Part shown: positions 2,789 through 24,157 of the stretch, one piece after another
Position numbering within the stretch: the first letter of the stretch is position 1
How the letters are laid out: every line of letters starts with the position of its first letter
Origin: a virus
Taxonomy: Duplodnaviria > Heunggongvirae > Uroviricota > Caudoviricetes
DNA: 32,447 nucleotides
Reading direction: 5' to 3' (one strand)
IMG/VR virus record: IMGVR_UViG_2585427783_000005
Made by a program: the position numbers and the translations under genes
The notes under the pieces: generated by a model
Told to the model about the DNA's origin: nothing
The model's database searches: none
What the model saw: the letters and a program-made list of their open reading frames with translations, nothing else

Positions 2789-3649
2789 TTACACGTGTTT
2801 TTCCAATGTGAAAACTACAGCCCCGGCAGGAGTAATGTCTGTAATGTTGCATTCAAACTCAGCAGACTTATTTGACAACCTGACTTTTCCACCGGGCAAG
2901 CGAATTACATCAAAAACATCAAGAGCGCCGTCGATATCAATTAACCAGCGACCATTACTTATATTCGAAGCAGAACAGTCGACAAGCCAAGAGGCAGCTA
3001 CACCGTCAACAAAAATCAATTCCCCTGAGTTAGAAGGAATCATTGAGGGGTCAGGATGCCACGTTCCTGCATCCTTAAGCTCACCAGATTCAAGACGAGA
3101 TTTTTTAATAGAAAAACCAGATGTGACATCTTCCCTGTTAGCTCGCATTTGCCCCTTGCCTGTTGCTAACCATTCCAGTGACGTATCGGTATCAAGAGCG
3201 CATGTAACAACAACATCACCAGGGAAAAAATCTCGCCTTACCCATGTGCTAATTGTGCCAGAGGAAATGCCGAGCAAATCACCGAGCTCCTTTTGCATGG
3301 TAAAGCCATACGCATCAAGAATCCTACGCAAAACGGTTTTACCACCATTCGTCATAATCTCGTCATAAAGCTCTTTGCCTTTTAACTTGCAACTGGCTCG
3401 CTCGTGATTTGCATTTGCAAGTTCTCCATTTACAAGCCAATTGATATCAGCTCCCGTGTCAAGACAACACCTAACTATGACATTGCCAGGTATTGCATCA
3501 CGCTGAACCCAGCCGCTAACGCTGTGTTTAGCGATACCTAGCAGGTCAGCCAAATCCTTTTGCATCTTGACCCCATAGGCTGACATTAAGCGTTCCAATA
3601 CGCCGTTCGTTGCACTAACACGCCACTGAACATCAAGCTCAGAACTCAT
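2789..3649 (-). CDS. cI: CI-type immunity repressor (186-like) with tandemly duplicated N-terminal HTH domain
   Basis: 286 aa. Two homologous modules (VLERLMSAYGVKMQKDLADLLGIAKHSVSGWVQRDAIPGNVIVRCCLDTGADINWLVNGE / VLRRILDAYGFTMQKELGDLLGISSGTISTWVRRDFFPGDVVVTCALDTDTSLEWLATGK), then a C-terminal domain resembling the 186 CI oligomerisation domain. Divergent from the early operon. Confidence 0.85.
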   Translation of the reverse strand: MSSELDVQWRVSATNGVLERLMSAYGVKMQKDLADLLGIAKHSVSGWVQRDAIPGNVIVRCCLDTGADINWLVNGELANANHERASCKLKGKELYDEIMTNGGKTVLRRILDAYGFTMQKELGDLLGISSGTISTWVRRDFFPGDVVVTCALDTDTSLEWLATGKGQMRANREDVTSGFSIKKSRLESGELKDAGTWHPDPSMIPSNSGELIFVDGVAASWLVDCSASNISNGRWLIDIDGALDVFDVIRLPGGKVRLSNKSAEFECNITDITPAGAVVFTLEKHV

Positions 3650-3770: not shown

Positions 3771-4142
3771 ATGTCAGATGCAAAATCAATCTCGACGCAC
3801 GACTCGCAAAACTCACAAAATCAAACTGTGCTGCTAGATCCAACACAGTTTGATGCCATCGTTACCGCCATGCTGCCAGCTCTACAGACAATGATTCGCT
3901 CCGCTATGTCAGACACGATGACTGTGAAAGACTTCGCCGCTACTCGCGGTGTTAGCGAGCGTCTGGTCTGGCAATGGCTCGATGAGGGAGTCCTTCTCAA
4001 AGCTCCGACCAAAGACTTTTCCAACAAAGAAGAAGCTGCTAAACGAAGCCGAACCCTCGTAAACGTAAAAGCATGGCGCGATAAGCTGACTCAACAAGCG
4101 ATTGATTGTCGCTACATCGACCAGCGCACCGCTCTTAACTGA
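3771..4142 (+). CDS. Putative Cox/Apl-like DNA-binding regulator/excisionase (first gene of early operon)
   Basis: ATG at 3771 with AGGAG RBS; HTH-like segment MTVKDFAATRGVSERLVWQWLDEGVL; position equivalent to 186 apl / P2 cox. Longer than Apl/Cox (123 aa), so the call is positional. Confidence 0.45.
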   Translation: MSDAKSISTHDSQNSQNQTVLLDPTQFDAIVTAMLPALQTMIRSAMSDTMTVKDFAATRGVSERLVWQWLDEGVLLKAPTKDFSNKEEAAKRSRTLVNVKAWRDKLTQQAIDCRYIDQRTALN

Positions 4143-5711: not shown

Positions 5712-7934
5712 TTGGCTGTTCAATTCGCTTATCCGTGGAACGTCCCACGGTCGGCAATCTCCAGCCCATACCTTACTTATGAGCAACAGCATCGCCGCGA
5801 CCGTATGTTCGCGGCTTTGCTGCATGCAAAAAAGGTGCTTTCTCTCCAGCCCGACTGCGTGCGGTTAGATGTTTATCGCACTGCTGCGGTGCTGGAACAA
5901 AATCAGGGTAGTCAACGAGCCAATGCATTTTTAATCAGCTTCTGCAAAAAGGCATTGCCGCGTCTTGAACTGGTCGCAAAAAAATACGAATGCGCTGGTA
6001 TCAACAGCAAGGTATCAACCGCTGTTTTTGGAAGTCATTTTGATACTCAGCAAATGCAATATCTGTCGTCACGCATGGTTAATATGGTCGCCCGATATAA
6101 CCGTCTCCCGGACATGTCGCGCGCTGATGTTGACCTGTTGGCCGCTGATATTGCTAATTTCATTCGTGGTGAACTTGCCAACATTAATGACCACGGATTC
6201 AGCGAGCTTAAAACGCTGTACACCTGGTATATTCGTGCTGGCTTTATTTCCCTCCAATTCAACGTTATCCCACCACATTGGGAGCGGGTTGAAAAAAAAT
6301 ATGTCGGTGCGGATGAAATCGCACCGGCTATCGCCAAAATGTTTAACGATGGGTGGTGGCGCGGTCGTTTGCGCCGTGTAGCAGCTACGTGGCGCGAACA
6401 CCTGCAAATTGCAGTCGGCAACGTCAGTAAGAAAAAAAACACTTACGCGAGTAAAAACTGCGTGACTGACTGGCGTGAACAAAAGCGCCGCACTCGTGAA
6501 TTTCTCAAAGGTCTGGATCTCGAAGACGAAGACGGCAACCGTATCAGCCTAATTGAAAAATATGATGGCTCAGTTGCTAACCCTGCGATTCGCCGCTGTG
6601 AGCTCATGACCCGCATTCGTGGGTTTGAAAACATCTGTAATGAGCTCGGTTATGTCGGTGAGTTTTACACTCTAACCGCGCCGTCAAAATATCACGCCAC
6701 GACTAAAGCCGGTTACCGTAACAGCAAATGGAGCGGTGCCAGCCCGGCTGACACGCAAAACTATCTAACCGGTATCTGGGCGCGTATCCGTGCCAAACTA
6801 CATCGGGAAGATGTCCGTATTTTCGGTATTCGTGTCGCCGAGCCCCATCACGACGGCACTCCACACTGGCACATGCTGATGTTCATGCTGCCGGAAGATG
6901 TTGAATATGTTCGCTCCATCGTCCGTAAATACGCATGGAAAGAAGACCGCCACGAACTGAAAAGCGATAAATCCCAAAAAGCACGTTTCCACGCGGAGTC
7001 CATTGACCCGGAGAAAGGCAGCGCAACCGGCTATGTTGCTAAATACATTTCAAAAAATATCGACGGTTATGCTCTCGATGGTGAAACCGATGATGAAAGC
7101 GGTGAGCTGCTGAAAGAGACAGCCCCCGCCGTTTCAGCATGGGCTGCGCGCTGGCACATCCGTCAGTTTCAGTTTATTGGTGGTGCGCCGGTGACGGTTT
7201 ACCGTGAGTTGCGTCGCCTCGCTGATACCGAAACCGCGCACGGTCTGAGCGTTGAGTTTGCCGCCGTCCATGATGCCGCCGACGCTGGTGACTGGGCTGG
7301 TTATGTTAATGCTCAGGGTGGGCCGTTTGTCCGTCGCGATGATTTACAGGTGCGCACACTGTATGAACCGCGTACCGAGCTTAATCAGTACGGTGAGGAA
7401 ACGGTATGTATTAAGGGGGTCTACGATTCCTCCATAGGTGCAGGAAGCCCGATTTTAACCCGGCTCACTCAGTGGAAGATTGTTCCGAAGCGTGCTGTTG
7501 ATTTGGCCGTTGACCTTCAGGACGGCAAAGCCGTCCCTCGGAGTTCTGTCAATAACTGTACGGGAAGCGAAAGCGATCCACCGATACTGGATTTAACAAA
7601 ACCACTGAGTCGGCGTGAAAGACGAGAATTGACCAACCGACTCAGGAAGCAAAAGCCAGCAGCACGGCGAAAATTCATCCACGGAACGGATGAGCAAAAC
7701 GCAGCTATAGCTAAAACTATCGATGAGATACATCTGACAACCGGCATTAATATCAGCCGGGGCGAAGCCCTGCACCTGATGGCCGGTGGTAAAAGTTGTT
7801 TTGATGGTAAATGGCTACGCGGAACGGCCAAAGGAGAAATATTTTCCGCAGCACCATCGCATGAGGCTAAAGCTCGGAAAATCCTTAATCGTGTTGCGGC
7901 GATGGCTGAAGCATCAAAACCAATACATGAGTAA
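5712..7934 (+). CDS. A: Rolling-circle replication initiator (P2 gpA family)
   Basis: 740 aa; HHDGTPHWHML and GYVAKYISKNIDGYALDG motifs; apparent TTG start at 5712 after a GGGGG RBS giving MAVQFAYPWNVPR, which resembles the P2 A N-terminus. Confidence 0.9.
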   Translation: MAVQFAYPWNVPRSAISSPYLTYEQQHRRDRMFAALLHAKKVLSLQPDCVRLDVYRTAAVLEQNQGSQRANAFLISFCKKALPRLELVAKKYECAGINSKVSTAVFGSHFDTQQMQYLSSRMVNMVARYNRLPDMSRADVDLLAADIANFIRGELANINDHGFSELKTLYTWYIRAGFISLQFNVIPPHWERVEKKYVGADEIAPAIAKMFNDGWWRGRLRRVAATWREHLQIAVGNVSKKKNTYASKNCVTDWREQKRRTREFLKGLDLEDEDGNRISLIEKYDGSVANPAIRRCELMTRIRGFENICNELGYVGEFYTLTAPSKYHATTKAGYRNSKWSGASPADTQNYLTGIWARIRAKLHREDVRIFGIRVAEPHHDGTPHWHMLMFMLPEDVEYVRSIVRKYAWKEDRHELKSDKSQKARFHAESIDPEKGSATGYVAKYISKNIDGYALDGETDDESGELLKETAPAVSAWAARWHIRQFQFIGGAPVTVYRELRRLADTETAHGLSVEFAAVHDAADAGDWAGYVNAQGGPFVRRDDLQVRTLYEPRTELNQYGEETVCIKGVYDSSIGAGSPILTRLTQWKIVPKRAVDLAVDLQDGKAVPRSSVNNCTGSESDPPILDLTKPLSRRERRELTNRLRKQKPAARRKFIHGTDEQNAAIAKTIDEIHLTTGINISRGEALHLMAGGKSCFDGKWLRGTAKGEIFSAAPSHEAKARKILNRVAAMAEASKPIHE

Positions 7935-8008
7935 TTCATATCCATATCATGCACATACAGCAATCGCTCTATTCGTTTTTTTTCTTCCCATCTTTTGCCA
8001 ATACGTGC

Positions 8009-8028
8009 TACTGTATAAATATACAGTA
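8009..8028 (+). promoter_or_regulatory. LexA (SOS) box overlapping a promoter upstream of the small-ORF/DinI-like operon
   Basis: TACTGTATAAATATACAGTA: CTGT-N8-ACAG, near-perfect palindrome matching the E. coli LexA consensus; TTGCCA -35-like hexamer at 7995-8000. Confidence 0.8.
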
Positions 8029-8047
8029 ACCCTGTGGGAGGGATTTC

Positions 8048-8230
8048 ATGGTTGGCGAACATTTCAGCCGAACGCAGCAAAAGTGGGCTTGTGTGCAATT
8101 TATTGCCGAGGTATCTCTGATTGCAAACTGCAAGCCATCAGACTTAAAGCTCGCGCTCACTCTCATTGCAGACCTAGCAAACAGCGAGAATAACGAAACC
8201 GAAGATGATAATTTTTATAAGGCTGATTAG
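8048..8230 (+). CDS. Small hypothetical protein, first gene of the putative LexA-controlled operon
   Basis: ATG 8048 with GGGAGGG RBS; 60 aa; acidic C-terminus. Confidence 0.55.
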   Translation: MVGEHFSRTQQKWACVQFIAEVSLIANCKPSDLKLALTLIADLANSENNETEDDNFYKAD

Positions 8231-8233
8231 ATT

Positions 8234-8467
8234 ATGAGAATCAATATCACGTTGGATAAAGAGCAAAAAATTAGTCAGGCAACATTGGATGCACTTGAGG
8301 CTGAACTGTACCGCAATCTTCAACCTATTTACCCAAAGACTGCTATCCGAATTCGCAAGGGCTCCGCTAATGGCGTTGAACTAAGCGGTTTGAAACTGGA
8401 CGAAGATAAAAAACGAGTAATGGAAATCATGCAGCAGGTATGGGAGGACGATAGCTGGCTGCATTAA
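8234..8467 (+). CDS. DinI/Tum-family protein (candidate SOS-induced antirepressor or RecA modulator)
   Basis: 77 aa; MRINITLDKEQKISQATLDALEAELYRNLQPIYP ... EIMQQVWEDDSWLH resembles DinI in length and conserved N- and C-terminal segments; downstream of the LexA box. Confidence 0.75.
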   Translation: MRINITLDKEQKISQATLDALEAELYRNLQPIYPKTAIRIRKGSANGVELSGLKLDEDKKRVMEIMQQVWEDDSWLH

Positions 8468-8469
8468 CA

Positions 8470-8541
8470 AACGCCGCCGGTGCTGAAACTTGCTTTCAGT
8501 GCTGGCGGGGTTGAACAACTCGCACCGCGAGGCGCTAGTTC
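8470..8541 (+). repeat. Copy 1 of ~72-bp direct repeat with internal stem-loop, 3 nt after the DinI-like stop
   Basis: AACGCCGCCGGTGCTGAAACTTGCTTTCAGTGCTGGCGGGGTTGAACAAC...GCGAGGCG; ~85% identical to copy 2. Confidence 0.8.
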
Positions 8542-8662
8542 TTCCTCTCAAAGTTTCTCGATGTTTTATTGGTTACACACCAGTGATGAATGGGACGTTA
8601 CCTTAGCGGGTTTTATAGTGGCGCTGTGGCAGCGCTAAATAAAATTCATTGAGGGCGATAAT

Positions 8663-8872
8663 ATGCATCGACTACCGGGCGAAATTCCGCAGCACAAAAC
8701 TAAAAGCATCAAACTGATGGCCATCGTTCATCGTCTGCAGCAGATAATGGTCAATGAGAATTTGACACCCGCCGAGCTGGTCGGGTGTGCCGAAATAGTC
8801 AGGGATAATTACGGCAAGCTGGATAGCATCAGCAAGCCGACACATTACTCACCGCCACCACGTCGACCATAG
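8663..8872 (+). CDS. Hypothetical small protein between the two repeat copies
   Basis: ATG 8663 with GAGGG RBS 7 nt upstream; 69 aa. Confidence 0.55.
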   Translation: MHRLPGEIPQHKTKSIKLMAIVHRLQQIMVNENLTPAELVGCAEIVRDNYGKLDSISKPTHYSPPPRRP

Positions 8873-8874
8873 AT

Positions 8875-8946
8875 AACGCCGCCGGAGCTGAAACTCGCTT
8901 TCAGGTCTGGCGGGGTTGAACAACGAGCTACGCGAGGCGTTAGCCG
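8875..8946 (+). repeat. Copy 2 of ~72-bp direct repeat with internal stem-loop, 3 nt after the 69-aa ORF stop
   Basis: AACGCCGCCGGAGCTGAAACTCGCTTTCAGGTCTGGCGGGGTTGAACAAC...GCGAGGCG; stem preserved by compensatory changes relative to copy 1. Confidence 0.8.
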
Positions 8947-9005
8947 GTCATAGCGTCGCAAATACTTCAACCGTCTGCTGGTTAAATAATTCGAGGTTTT
9001 TGGAC

Positions 9006-9200
9006 ATGCAAAATCCCCTTTCATCGAAAAATGACCCGTTTGCCGATTGGGCAAAGAATCTGACTTTAATGGCTTTAAATAACGACCTGAGCTCTCGCGA
9101 GGTGGAAAGCTACACCGCAAAAATGGTCGGGCAGGCCGGTAAAGATGAGCTATCAGTCGTTATCAAACACCTGTTAAATCACATCAGAATGCGCAAATAA
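9006..9200 (+). CDS. Hypothetical small protein
   Basis: ATG 9006 with GAGG 9 nt upstream; 64 aa (track ORF 8916..9200 starts at a TTG inside repeat copy 2). Confidence 0.4.
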   Translation: MQNPLSSKNDPFADWAKNLTLMALNNDLSSREVESYTAKMVGQAGKDELSVVIKHLLNHIRMRK

Positions 9201-9216
9201 GAGGAACTATATAAAT

Positions 9217-9318
9217 ATGTTATCTCTCGTTTATGAAAATCCGTGGACGACGATTTTTCTGATGATTGTTGCCAGCATGTGCCTCAACAGTGTTATTGGC
9301 GCATTGCGCGGCCATTAA
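9217..9318 (+). CDS. Small hydrophobic peptide (33 aa, single predicted TM helix)
   Basis: ATG 9217 with AAGAGGAA RBS 10 nt upstream; MLSLVYENPWTTIFLMIVASMCLNSVIGALRGH; followed by a strong terminator. Below the ORF-track size cutoff. Confidence 0.45.
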   Translation: MLSLVYENPWTTIFLMIVASMCLNSVIGALRGH

Positions 9319-9336
9319 TCGCGACAAAACCAGACT

Positions 9337-9367
9337 AAAACCGGCACCCTGAATGCCGGTTTTTTTA
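9337..9367 (+). terminator. Rho-independent terminator ending the post-A accessory operon
   Basis: AAAACCGGCA-ccctgaa-TGCCGGTTTT followed by a T-run (TTTTTTTAT). Confidence 0.8.
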
Positions 9368-9526
9368 TGCCATTTTTCCGCGAATTTCCCGTTTTTTAGT
9401 CGTGCATGCATCAGGTGCATGGTTTTGCATGCGTCAGTCTTGCCCGTTCTGTCCGTGCGCCGCCAGAGCTAGCGCGGATCCAGAGTTGTCATGCAACTGC
9501 ATTAAAACCGCCCCATAAAGCGGGCA

Positions 9527-9545
9527 GGCGTGGCGGGGAAAGCAT
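9527..9545. other. cos site (cohesive-end sequence, P2/186 type)
   Basis: GGCGTGGCGGGGAAAGCAT in a ~400-bp GC-rich non-coding interval between the early/accessory region and portal gene Q, where cos lies in P2-family prophages; resembles the P2 19-nt cohesive end as I recall it. Confidence 0.65.
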
Positions 9546-9764
9546 TGCGCGCCAGCAGTGATGCGTAATAATAAAAATTATCCTCTGAGCGCGTCGTGAT
9601 GGCGCTGTCGTGGTCGCTGCTGGTTCGTTGGTGGTCGAGTGTGTTCGTGCGCGTGAGACGCATCTGATGCGTGATGGTGGTGTGCATGGAAAAGCCACCA
9701 GGAGCAGCGGCTTTACAGGAGTGGCAGGATTCAAACTGCTAATTATGTTTCTACTATGATTAAA

Positions 9765-10769
9765 CTAATTTACATGTATGTAGAGTTCACCGTCGCCAGA
9801 CCAATCGGGACACTCTAAAACAAGCCCAAACTGCTTGAATATTTCATCAATGATTATTGTTATCTCCCGAAAATCACCAAAACCTGTAATGTGCTGGTCA
9901 TTAAACTTCCCATAAAGATTCTGAAAAGCAATGCCTAATTCTGATAATTGATATCTTATCTTTGAGTTGGATAGTGTAAGGGATAGCTTTGGATCGTATT
10001 CTTTAATATTGATGTTTAGAGAATGGACATAACCCATCGCATAAGCATAAGAGTTGATGATTAGCCTGATACGTTTTTTTACTTCAAGATACATGTCATT
10101 CAGAGAAATATTACCGTACTTATAACCCCAGATGAGTTTTTCAATCTCGTCAGATACTTCATTTACAACAGTGTCAAGATTCTCTAAAAATAAATCGACA
10201 GTTTCTTGAGGGGCAGACCCCGAAGACATGTAATTAGCGAGATATTCAGACCATGCACGCGTGGCTGAGATAAGAAGCGCGCTACCATACTCGTTGACTG
10301 TAAAGTTTTGGGCTAAGCATGTTAGTAAGTTTTTTTCATGTACGTGCACTAATTCATGGTGAATGCGATGGATGACTGCGAGGTATCCTTCTTCTTTCAG
10401 TTTTAAGAAGCTACCATCATTGAAAAGCTCAACAAAAAAATCAATCGATAGCACAAGGGTATATTCTTCATATAGCCCATCATTGCCAATTTTTGTTACT
10501 AACTGCCCGACGGCTGCGCCCTGTTTGCTATTGGTAAATGAACTAGGGGATTTGTGTTGGTAAGAGGATGTTACCTTTTGAAGAGCTTCACTGAAGTTAT
10601 AGGAAACAATCACGCATTTTAATTTGGAGATATCAAGATTGAGATTCTTTGTTAAAGCTCGGATAGCTTCTAGTGTGAAATTACCGATATTATTTGCTTC
10701 TTGCTCAGTAGCGAAACCTTCGAGGGTTATTTTAAAATCAGTTTCCAAAATATTAATCTCCGCGCCCAT
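9765..10769 (-). CDS. AT-rich hypothetical protein with HExxH motif (possible metal-dependent hydrolase); accessory gene between cos and Q
   Basis: 334 aa ORF, ATG at 10767-10769 (revcomp); IHRIHHELVHVHE motif; strongly AT-rich relative to flanking phage genes; no recognisable P2 homolog. Confidence 0.6.
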   Translation of the reverse strand: MGAEINILETDFKITLEGFATEQEANNIGNFTLEAIRALTKNLNLDISKLKCVIVSYNFSEALQKVTSSYQHKSPSSFTNSKQGAAVGQLVTKIGNDGLYEEYTLVLSIDFFVELFNDGSFLKLKEEGYLAVIHRIHHELVHVHEKNLLTCLAQNFTVNEYGSALLISATRAWSEYLANYMSSGSAPQETVDLFLENLDTVVNEVSDEIEKLIWGYKYGNISLNDMYLEVKKRIRLIINSYAYAMGYVHSLNINIKEYDPKLSLTLSNSKIRYQLSELGIAFQNLYGKFNDQHITGFGDFREITIIIDEIFKQFGLVLECPDWSGDGELYIHVN

Positions 10770-23243: not shown

Positions 23244-24157
23244 CCGCAAAATATTTTGCCATTCTGACCAATCAGGGCGCGGCGCGGCTGGCGAACGCGG
23301 CGGCACTCGGTACCAAACTCAACCTGACGCAGATGGCCGTCGGTGATGCGAATGGTACGTTGCCGACCCCTGACCCGGCGCAGACGAAGCTCATTAACCA
23401 GAAACGCATCGCGCCGCTGAACCTGCTGACCGTTGACCCGGCCAATACCAGTCAGATTATCGCGGAACAGATTATTCCCGAGAATGAAGGTGGTTTCTGG
23501 ATCCGCGAGATTGGTCTCTATGACGATGATGGTATTCTGATTGCCGTGGCGAACTGTCCGGAGACCTACAAGCCACAACTGCAGGAGGGAAGCGGTCGCA
23601 CGCAGACCATTCGCATGATTCTGATTGTGTCGAGCACATCGGCAATCACCCTGAAAATCGACCCGGCAGTCGTGCTGGCAACGCGCCAGTATGTCGACGA
23701 CAAGATTATCGAGGTGAAAGGATATGCTGATGACCTGATGAAAAAACATGTTGAGGCCGCCAATCCACACAAGCAGTACCCGTTAATCGCTAATGCTCTG
23801 AAAGAAATGGTTGACGCGGGACTGGCCGGCGACGTTCTTAAAAACCTTGGTTTAAGAGCAAGCGGGCAGTACACCGATAATTTGTTATTTACAGGTCCTG
23901 ATGGTCTTAAGATTCAGGTGTTTCGCCGGACGCTCGCAAATTTGACTACTGTCGGTGTAGTAAATTCTGTGCCAGTGACTTTCCCTGTCCCGTTCCCTGT
24001 TAATTGCTGGGGCGTTTTTTCTACCAAATTAACATGGGTTCAGATAACTAACTCATGCGAGTGGGTAAGCAATACAGGATTTACCGCTCAGGTCATGATG
24101 AATATTGCTGTAAATACAAACACCTCAGACGCTATGTTTTTAGCTATAGGATATTAA
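23240..24157 (+). CDS. H: Tail fibre protein (short form; conserved N-terminus plus invertible C-terminal domain)
   Basis: 305 aa; N-terminus (AVGDANGTLP..., IPENEGGFWIREIGLYDDDGILIAVANCPETYKP) resembles the P2 gpH N-terminus; C-terminal part lies inside the predicted invertible segment. Confidence 0.85.
   Translation: MTAKYFAILTNQGAARLANAAALGTKLNLTQMAVGDANGTLPTPDPAQTKLINQKRIAPLNLLTVDPANTSQIIAEQIIPENEGGFWIREIGLYDDDGILIAVANCPETYKPQLQEGSGRTQTIRMILIVSSTSAITLKIDPAVVLATRQYVDDKIIEVKGYADDLMKKHVEAANPHKQYPLIANALKEMVDAGLAGDVLKNLGLRASGQYTDNLLFTGPDGLKIQVFRRTLANLTTVGVVNSVPVTFPVPFPVNCWGVFSTKLTWVQITNSCEWVSNTGFTAQVMMNIAVNTNTSDAMFLAIGY
23835..23858. repeat. Left recombination (crossover) site of invertible tail-fibre segment (hix/gix-like)
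   Basis: TTCTTAAAAACCTTGGTTTAAGAG resembles hixL as recalled; inverted relative to the right site. Confidence 0.6.

What the first reader, a model, noticed from the sequence alone, without database searches (positions are those of the whole stretch)
7995..8467. Consensus LexA box driving a small-ORF / DinI-family operon: SOS-inducible module of 186 type
TACTGTATAAATATACAGTA at 8009-8028 is a near-perfect LexA operator overlapping a promoter, immediately upstream of a 60-aa ORF and a 77-aa DinI-like protein. In phage 186, prophage induction depends on a LexA-repressed antirepressor gene (tum) in the same genomic position, and DinI has been reported to be related to Tum. This prophage is therefore predicted to be SOS-inducible, unlike P2, with the DinI-family protein or the small ORF as antirepressor.
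Basis: partly seen in the sequence, partly recalled or inferred. Interest (0 to 1): 0.55.

Follow-up and report, generated by a model that had tools for sequence, protein, structure and literature searches.

The report
LexA-controlled tumA–tumB prophage induction operon
This is the already described DNA-damage switch of phage PSP3 and its 186-type relatives, a LexA-repressed promoter driving a small antirepressor (TumA) and a DinI-like protein (TumB), sitting in an E. coli prophage, so it is real but ordinary.

Summary
TACTGTATAAATATACAGTA at 8009-8028 matches the LexA consensus at 19 of 20 positions. It is the only such site in the window and scores above 20 E. coli SOS boxes recalled from memory. 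It lies 19 nt upstream of a 60-aa ORF (8048-8230), which is followed by a 77-aa DinI-family ORF (8234-8467).

The region is 94.5% identical in DNA to the tumA/tumB genes of Salmonella phage PSP3. TumA matches at 59/60 residues, TumB at 76/77 and the CI repressor at 98%. GenBank annotates PSP3 tumA as "similar to 5' end 186 tum; UV induction of prophage". The promoter and operator region aligns with the annotated LexA-repressed p95 promoter of 186. Published work says tum is split by a stop codon in PSP3 and Fels-2, and that the upstream gene is the antirepressor.

My comparison of 34 loci agrees. A strong LexA box sits 17-23 nt before every tumA homologue, whereas a DinI-like gene follows in only 14 of 33 assessable loci. 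The small ORF, not the DinI protein, is therefore the likely antirepressor.

Novelty: already known. Side observations are a tandem-HTH CI and a repeated structured element placed directly after genes.

The parts
7985..7990 (+). -35-like hexamer TTCCCA of the p95-type promoter (inferred)
   Evidence: It aligns column for column with the annotated p95 -35 (TTCACA) of phage 186 and has the same 18-nt spacer. The generic promoter scan did not detect it.
8009..8014 (+). -10 hexamer TACTGT of the p95-type promoter (inferred); it is the left arm of the LexA box
   Evidence: Identical to the annotated p95 -10 of 186.
8009..8028 (.). LexA operator (SOS box) TACTGTATAAATATACAGTA
   Evidence: 19/20 to the consensus and unique in the window. 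It scores 29.1 of 30.6 bits. The same box is present in PSP3, Midge, SW9 and SEN1, and 186 has a box at the same position. A box lies 17-23 nt upstream of tumA in 34 of 34 loci.
8036..8042 (+). Shine-Dalgarno sequence GGGAGGG for tumA
   Evidence: Read directly from the sequence. It is annotated as a ribosome binding site in phage Midge.
8048..8230 (+). tumA, 60 aa: predicted antirepressor of CI
   Evidence: 59/60 identical to PSP3 TumA. Homologous to 186 Tum residues 14-53. Hits phrog_1993. 208 homologue clusters, nearly all about 60 aa. Predicted as a two-helix hairpin, pLDDT 70.6.
8234..8467 (+). tumB, 77 aa: DinI-family protein. Its start lies 3 nt after the tumA stop and in the same frame.
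   Evidence: Pfam DinI at E = 7.4e-24. 76/77 identical to PSP3 TumB. 47% identical to 186 Tum 71-145. Matches the E. coli DinI structure 1GHH at E = 2.6e-9.
8470..8512 (+). Strong hairpin directly after tumB with no U-run: first copy of a repeated element placed directly after genes (full element about 8468-8541)
   Evidence: The 84-nt stretch containing it folds at -39.4 kcal/mol, z = -5.6. The element is conserved in 186 and PSP3. Covariation is seen in 16 sequences.
8663..8872 (+). 69-aa ORF (PSP3 orf37 homologue), probably a distal gene of the same transcript
   Evidence: Called by PGAP and in the PSP3 record. Hits phrog_11386. No terminator with a U-run and no promoter-like site lies between tumB and this ORF.
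8873..8946 (+). Second copy of the repeated element
9006..9200 (+). 64-aa ORF of unknown function, lying before the terminator
   Evidence: PGAP gene call. Hits phrog_2454 over residues 31-94 of the longer ORF.
9337..9367 (+). Intrinsic terminator homologous to 186 t95b: likely end of the SOS operon
   Evidence: Aligns with the annotated 186 t95b, and the following sequence is about 91% identical up to the 186 right cohesive end, near window 9527. It folds as a stem followed by a U7 run.
2789..3649 (-). cI, 286 aa: immunity repressor and presumed target of TumA
   Evidence: 98% identical to PSP3 CI. Pfam shows Phage_CI_repr twice plus Phage_CI_C and no S24 peptidase. 32% identical to 186 CI. 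Matches the 186 CI structure 2FJR.

Best explanation
This is the SOS operon of a PSP3-type (186-like, Eganvirus) prophage of E. coli.

In an undamaged lysogen, host LexA binds the near-consensus box at 8009-8028. The box overlaps the -10 region of a p95-type promoter, so the operon is kept off. DNA damage activates RecA, LexA cleaves itself, and the operon is transcribed.

TumA is a 60-aa protein predicted to be a two-helix hairpin, and it corresponds to the N-terminal half of 186 Tum. It binds the CI immunity repressor and stops it binding its operators. This derepresses the early lytic promoter and induces the prophage. CI itself is not cleaved.

TumB corresponds to the DinI-like C-terminal half of 186 Tum, and to the internally initiated 186 product Tum95.5. 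It is an accessory protein. It probably acts on RecA filaments to modulate the SOS signal and is not the antirepressor.

The transcript probably continues through two small ORFs to a t95b-type terminator at 9337-9367.

Shown here: the operator, the ORFs, all the homologies, and the conservation of the LexA box with tumA. Inferred: LexA binding, promoter activity, the TumA-CI interaction and the role of TumB.
For: - The operator matches the consensus at 19/20, is unique in the window and scores above a set of recalled E. coli SOS boxes.
- The intergenic region aligns with the 186 promoter p95, which GenBank annotates as giving "SOS-dependent transcription of SOS operon" with a LexA site at the same columns.
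- TumA is 59/60, TumB 76/77 and CI 280/286 identical to PSP3, where tumA is annotated "UV induction of prophage".
- TumA aligns with 186 Tum 14-53, with 0 of 3000 shuffles reaching the score. TumB aligns with Tum 71-145 at 47% identity, and TumB residue 1 aligns with the GTG start of the annotated product Tum95.5.
- The literature says Tum binds CI and prevents operator binding, that PSP3 and Fels-2 have tum split by a stop codon, and that the upstream PSP3 gene carries the antirepressor activity (PMC3121763). It also says 186, PSP3 and Fels-2 are UV-inducible because of tum (PMC2771037), and that p95-tum alone confers UV-dependent derepression of the 186 switch (PMC7708051).
- In 34 loci (window, 4 phages, 29 genomes) every tumA homologue has a LexA box of 21.7-29.1 bits lying 17-23 nt upstream. 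A DinI-like gene follows in only 14 of 33 assessable loci.
- A distant TumA-like gene in Yersinia phage YenM_31.17 also has a LexA box and no DinI gene.
- CI has no S24 autocleavage domain.
Against: - There are no experimental data for this prophage.
- The statement that PSP3 TumA is the antirepressor reaches print only as a personal communication cited second-hand. I could not retrieve the citing paper, Bunny et al. 2002.
- A generic sigma-70 scan finds no promoter, and both inferred hexamers are weak.
- BLASTP finds no TumA/Tum N-terminal similarity. The relationship rests on a Smith-Waterman shuffle test and on bridging sequences.
- The TumA structural model has only moderate confidence and matches nothing informative.
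- I did not check systematically that the prophage is intact.
Confidence: 0.88

Rival explanations
1. The DinI-like TumB, alone or as an obligatory partner of TumA, is the antirepressor.
For: In 186 the two parts form one polypeptide. Here tumA and tumB are in the same frame, separated only by TAG plus one codon. The two genes are tightly juxtaposed and probably translationally coupled.
Against: - 19 of 33 assessable tumA loci have a LexA box and no DinI-like gene within 420 nt downstream, as does phage YenM_31.17.
- The 186 record describes the DinI-only product Tum95.5 as one that "modulates SOS induction" and assigns inhibition of CI DNA binding to full-length Tum.
- PMC3121763 reports that the upstream PSP3 gene holds the antirepressor activity. 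It also reports that non-polar dinI deletions in Gifsy prophages did not affect induction.
- The spacing and frame between tumA and tumB are not conserved in diverged loci, where the gaps are 2, 13 and 17 nt.
Confidence: 0.05
2. The operon is SOS-regulated but does not induce this particular prophage. This could be because the element is defective, or because the module here only modulates the host SOS response or excludes other phages.
For: I did not check the integrity of every gene. The nearest 'phage' record, vB_EcoM-613R3, is a prophage identified in sequenced genomes rather than an induced virus. The 186 SOS operon also encodes a non-induction function, orf97.
Against: The window has a complete-looking 186-type gene order: int, cI, cII, fil, A, then portal, terminase and tail genes. 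CI and TumA are 98% identical to those of the viable phage PSP3. Identical modules occur in the isolated phages Midge, SW9 and SEN1.
Confidence: 0.06
3. The palindrome is a chance or non-LexA feature, for example a binding site for a phage protein.
For: None beyond the lack of a direct binding test.
Against: No shuffle of 100 gave a match. The score is above a set of recalled E. coli SOS boxes. The box is conserved in position across 34 loci whose neighbouring bases vary.
Confidence: 0.01

Closest known systems
tumA-tumB of Salmonella phage PSP3 (GenBank AY135486)
   Same: The region 7900-8700 is 94.5% identical in DNA. TumA is 59/60, TumB 76/77 and CI 280/286 identical. The LexA box, the position after gene A, the TAG-ATT-ATG junction and the downstream orf37 are the same.
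   Different: The host is E. coli rather than Salmonella, with identical copies in several E. coli chromosomes. There are a few substitutions. The distal part of the operon and the cargo near cos differ.
p95-tum SOS operon of coliphage 186 (GenBank U32222; Lamont 1989, Brumby 1996 and Shearwin 1998 cited from my own knowledge and from reference lists)
   Same: The promoter/operator region is homologous, with the LexA box overlapping the -10. The operon lies after gene A. The N-terminal part of Tum corresponds to TumA, and the DinI-like C-terminal part (Tum95.5) corresponds to TumB. There is a t95b-type terminator before cos. The target is a CI of the same family.
   Different: In 186 the two parts form one 146-aa polypeptide, whereas here they are two genes. 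orf97 and t95a are absent and two small unrelated ORFs take their place. TumA and the Tum N-terminal part are only about 30% identical. CI here has two tandem HTH domains instead of one.
LexA-controlled dinI-antirepressor operons of the Gifsy-1/2/3 prophages (gfoA, gftA, gfhA)
   Same: A LexA box controls an operon that contains a DinI homologue and a small antirepressor. The antirepressor inactivates a non-cleavable repressor by binding to it (PMC3121763).
   Different: The gene order is reversed, with dinI first. These are lambdoid phages, and their repressor and antirepressor families were not compared here.
E. coli chromosomal DinI (PDB 1GHH)
   Same: TumB is in the same Pfam family, aligns over its full length and has the acidic C-terminal helix motif W-E-D-D-S-W.
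   Different: TumB scores 52 bits against a cut-off of 111 for the NCBIfam DinI equivalog, so it is a phage paralogue and not the host protein.

Membership tests
Enterobacterial LexA operator (SOS box) | A 20-bp palindrome TACTG(TA)5CAGTA with invariant CTG...CAG arms | tested here: met
   19/20 match and a perfect CTGT-N8-ACAG. Scores 29.1 of 30.6 bits, above a set of 20 E. coli SOS boxes listed from memory.
Enterobacterial LexA operator (SOS box) | Overlaps the promoter of the regulated gene | tested here: inconclusive
   It overlaps the -10 hexamer inferred by alignment with the annotated 186 p95, but the generic promoter scan finds nothing. It lies 19 nt upstream of the tumA ATG.
Enterobacterial LexA operator (SOS box) | Bound by LexA and derepressed by DNA damage | not testable with these tools
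   Needs EMSA or ChIP, or a reporter assay.
Tum/TumA antirepressors of 186-type phages | Sequence homology to PSP3 TumA and the N-terminal half of 186 Tum | tested here: met
   59/60 identical to PSP3 TumA. Smith-Waterman score 60 against 21 +/- 4 for Tum 14-53. BLASTP alone was negative.
Tum/TumA antirepressors of 186-type phages | Expressed from a LexA-repressed promoter downstream of replication gene A | tested here: met
   The box is present in 34 of 34 family loci.
Tum/TumA antirepressors of 186-type phages | The cognate repressor belongs to the 186 CI family and is not RecA-cleavable | tested here: met
   Pfam shows Phage_CI_repr plus Phage_CI_C and no Peptidase_S24. 32% identical to 186 CI. 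Every complete CI linked to a tumA homologue is of this family. Non-cleavage itself is an inference.
Tum/TumA antirepressors of 186-type phages | Binds CI and reversibly blocks its DNA binding | not testable with these tools
   Reported for 186 Tum (PMC3121763). Not tested for this protein.
DinI family (PF06183) | Profile match above the curated threshold | tested here: met
   84.3 bits against a cut-off of 24.2. Aligns with 1GHH over its full length.
DinI family (PF06183) | Orthologue of the host DinI (NCBIfam equivalog NF007893) | tested here: not met
   52.3 bits against a cut-off of 111. TumB is a phage paralogue of the family.
DinI family (PF06183) | Binds RecA filaments | not testable with these tools
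   Biochemical property.
186 SOS operon architecture (p95-tum-t95a-orf97-t95b) | A single fused tum gene, plus orf97 | tested here: not met
   tum is split by TAG. orf97 is absent. The sequence after tumB joins what follows orf97 in 186.
186 SOS operon architecture (p95-tum-t95a-orf97-t95b) | p95-type promoter/operator and t95b-type terminator next to cos | tested here: met

The most novel reading that the evidence does not exclude
TumA may act on the conserved second HTH domain of the tandem-HTH, PSP3-type CI, rather than on the variable first HTH domain that appears to set immunity specificity.

If so, one and the same TumA would work as a cross-immunity antirepressor, and SOS induction of one prophage could co-induce heteroimmune relatives in the same cell. 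The DinI module would be a dispensable add-on.

The basis is as follows.
- TumA is 98-100% identical in phages whose CI first HTH domain is only about 50% identical, while the second HTH domain and the C-terminal domain stay almost invariant.
- All 24 complete CI genes linked to a tumA homologue keep a domain of the second-HTH type at 68% identity or more. This includes three 192-194-aa repressors with a single HTH.

Slower evolution of that domain, or mosaic recombination, would explain the same pattern.
Probability: 0.3. Interest if true: 0.35.

Novelty: already known. Interest (0 to 1): 0.12.

Why it matters
In practice it means this E. coli prophage should be induced by DNA-damaging agents, including antibiotics such as fluoroquinolones. 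It belongs to a family present in 111 of 5426 complete E. coli genomes. RefSeq labels the key gene only as 'hypothetical protein', so the known function could be carried over to its annotation. It opens no new question. The antirepressor route of SOS induction in 186-type phages has been established since the late 1980s and 1990s.

Tried and rejected
- BLASTP of the 60-aa ORF against 186 Tum gave nothing. A Smith-Waterman shuffle test and bridging homologues were needed.
- A sequence search of the PDB with TumA found nothing. The AlphaFold model is a two-helix hairpin at pLDDT 70.6, and Foldseek returned only non-significant generic helical hits.
- The generic promoter scan found no sigma-70 site.
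- Rfam found nothing relevant in 7800-9800, only a sub-threshold Thr_leader match. PADLOC found no hits for the operon proteins or the neighbouring 334-aa ORF.
- I considered programmed read-through of the TAG between the in-frame tumA and tumB. I rejected it because stop codons vary between TAG and TAA, and the gap and frame are not conserved in diverged loci, where the gaps are 2, 13 and 17 nt.
- A second LexA-like site at 24106 scores 14.6 bits, which is within the range of shuffled sequence, so I treat it as chance.
- Bunny et al. 2002, the source of the PSP3 personal communication, is not in the library. One literature search was wasted on word-start matching.
- In loci L026 and L034 the CI gene lies beyond the fetched flank, so they could not be used for the CI comparison.

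Full report
**What is in the sequence**

The 20-mer TACTGTATAAATATACAGTA lies exactly at 8009-8028. It differs from the LexA consensus TACTGTATATATATACAGTA at one central position. It is the only match in the window at up to 3 mismatches, and none of 100 dinucleotide-preserving shuffles gave a match. It is also the only perfect CTGT-N8-ACAG.

I built a symmetric weight matrix from 20 E. coli SOS boxes listed from memory of the published compilations, so the matrix is approximate. The site scores 29.1 bits of a possible 30.6, above every training site. umuDC scores 27.4, recA 22.8 and the 186 p95 site 27.5. The next best site in the window scores 14.6 bits, and the best score in 100 shuffles was 20.3.

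A Shine-Dalgarno sequence, GGGAGGG, lies at 8036-8042. It precedes a 60-aa ORF (8048-8230). Three bases after that ORF's TAG stop a 77-aa ORF begins (8234-8467). The 77-aa protein is a clear DinI-family member: Pfam PF06183 at E = 7.4e-24, and it aligns over its full length with the E. coli DinI structure 1GHH. The 60-aa protein has no Pfam, NCBIfam or PDB match and falls in a PHROG of unknown function.

**Context**

The window is a 186-type (Peduoviridae, Eganvirus-like) prophage in an E. coli chromosome.
- Its genes include an integrase, a CI repressor of the 186 family, a CII (CP76) homologue and replication gene A (5712-7934). The SOS module follows, and after the cos region come the portal and terminase genes.
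- The 801 bp around the finding are 100% identical in several complete E. coli chromosomes. Matches occur in 111 of 5426 genomes.

**Identity of the module**

The region 7900-8700 is 94.5% identical to Salmonella phage PSP3. There the two genes are annotated as follows:
- tumA: "similar to 5' end 186 tum; UV induction of prophage".
- tumB: "similar to dinI and 3' end of 186 tum".

Protein identities to PSP3 are 59/60 for TumA, 76/77 for TumB and 280/286 for CI.

The intergenic region aligns with the p95 promoter of phage 186. GenBank annotates p95 as SOS-dependent, with a LexA site whose left arm is the -10 hexamer TACTGT. The box, the -10, the -35 position and the spacer are all in register.

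A generic sigma-70 scan does not call a promoter here. The promoter therefore rests on homology and not on consensus strength.

TumB is 47% identical to residues 71-145 of 186 Tum. Its first residue aligns with the GTG start of the annotated internal product Tum95.5.

TumA gave no BLASTP hit to Tum. A Smith-Waterman alignment to Tum residues 14-53 scores 60, against 21 +/- 4 for shuffled sequences, and 0 of 3000 shuffles reached it. A Yersinia phage homologue bridges the two sequences.

**What the literature says**

Lemire et al. 2011 (PMC3121763) make four relevant statements.
- Tum binds its cognate repressor and prevents operator binding.
- The second half of Tum resembles DinI.
[quoted passage not shown] This is a personal communication from G. 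E. Christie, cited through Bunny et al. 2002, which I could not retrieve.

Lavigne et al. [quoted passage not shown] Murchland et al. 2020 (PMC7708051) use a p95-tum fragment as a self-contained UV-induction module.

**Comparative test of which gene matters**

The TumA family has 208 clusters at 90% identity, nearly all about 60 aa long, across Enterobacteriaceae. I fetched 29 genomic loci and analysed them together with the window and four phages, 34 loci in all.
- Every tumA homologue has a LexA-like box of 21.7-29.1 bits ending 17-23 nt before its start codon (34 of 34).
- A DinI-like gene follows in only 14 of 33 assessable loci.
- tumA and tumB share a frame in the window. That relation, the 3-nt gap and the stop codon are not conserved in diverged loci, so programmed read-through is unlikely.
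- A distant TumA-like gene (34% identity) in Yersinia phage vB_YenM_31.17 also sits behind a near-consensus box, TACTGTACATAAATACAGTA, and has no DinI gene.

The invariant unit is therefore the LexA box plus tumA, and DinI is optional.

**Mechanism**

The most likely sequence of events is this.
1. LexA occupies the box and blocks the p95-type promoter.
2. DNA damage leads to LexA self-cleavage.
3. TumA is made and sequesters CI, which derepresses the lytic promoter.

CI has two Phage_CI_repr domains and a Phage_CI_C domain but no S24 peptidase domain. Direct RecA-stimulated cleavage, as in lambda, is therefore not expected.

TumB probably modulates RecA filaments or the SOS signal. This rests on its family membership and on the 186 annotation that truncated Tum products "modulate SOS induction".

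- No U-tract terminator follows tumB.
- Two further small ORFs follow, at 8663-8872 and 9006-9200, both also called by PGAP.
- A terminator homologous to 186 t95b lies at 9337-9367, just before the cos region at about 9527.

LexA binding, promoter activity and the TumA-CI contact are all inferred and were not shown here.

**The repressor**

CI, like PSP3 CI, is 286 aa long because its helix-turn-helix domain is duplicated in tandem (residues 13-80 and 102-169). Each copy is about 32% identical to the single N-terminal domain of 186 CI.
- Among phages with a 98-100% identical TumA, the first HTH is only about 50% identical, while the second HTH and the C-terminal domain are almost invariant.
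- In all 24 complete CI genes linked to a tumA homologue, a domain of the second-HTH type is kept at 68% identity or more. This includes three single-HTH repressors of 192-194 aa.

This fits TumA acting on the conserved second HTH, which would allow cross-induction of heteroimmune relatives. Slower evolution of that domain, or mosaic recombination, would fit equally well.

**Structure of TumA**

AlphaFold2, run with 41 homologues, predicts a two-helix hairpin (helices at residues 4-25 and 30-51) with mean pLDDT 70.6. Foldseek against the PDB gives no significant match.

**Verdict**

The feature is an already known system, a near-identical copy of the PSP3 tumA-tumB SOS operon, so interest is low. 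The side observations may be worth a separate look: the tandem-HTH CI and a repeated, covarying element placed directly after genes.

Noticed in passing
window 8468-8541 and 8873-8946 (+); also L001 (PSP3, two copies), L002 2499-2579 (186, after orf97), L010-L012, L014, L015, L021, L034, L036, L039, L040: A repeat of about 75 nt sits directly after the stop codons of tumB and of the next ORF. It has a 15-bp hairpin followed by the invariant motif GGTTGAACAAC...GCGAGGCGTTAG, with no U-run. Across 16 copies the stem sequence changes and pairing is kept, with compensatory changes at 9 pairs. It has no Rfam match and is unannotated in 186. In many phages it is the only stretch conserved between otherwise unrelated flanks. 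That suggests either a recombination linker at module boundaries or an RNA 3'-end stabiliser or attenuator.
   Followed up: partly
window 2789-3649 (-): The CI repressor (286 aa, as in PSP3) carries a tandem duplication of its HTH domain (residues 13-80 and 102-169). The first copy varies between heteroimmune relatives, at about 50% identity, while the second copy and the C-terminal domain are nearly invariant. An earlier comparative paper (PMC3448106) described PSP3 CI as having a longer C-terminal domain.
   Followed up: partly
window 8228-8236: tumA and tumB are in the same reading frame, separated only by TAG and one ATT codon. An amber-suppressor host would make a 139-aa fused protein resembling 186 Tum. 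The frame relation is not conserved in diverged loci, so it is probably a relic of a fusion or a split and not a regulated read-through.
   Followed up: yes
window 9765-10769 (-): A 334-aa ORF lies between the cos region (about 9527) and the portal gene, a position where P2-like phages often carry cargo genes. It has no Pfam, NCBIfam or PADLOC match and falls only in a PHROG of unknown function (phrog_11743).
   Followed up: partly
window 3771-4142 (+): The gene in the Apl/Cox position encodes a 123-aa protein with no Pfam hit and only a weak match to Cox-like excisionases (phrog_575, E = 8e-5). The literature calls its PSP3 counterpart a singleton.
   Followed up: no
window 7940-7963 (+): A block of about 22 bp (ATCCATATCATG.ACATACAG) just after the stop of gene A is conserved between the window, its PSP3-type relatives and 186, although the sequence around it diverges. 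Its function is unknown and it is not a second LexA box.
   Followed up: no
L019 and L022 (genome-contig hits): Two tumA loci come from records titled as a Bacillota MAG and a Chryseobacterium isolate. Their sequences are typical enterobacterial prophage, so contamination or mis-binning of those assemblies is likely.
   Followed up: no
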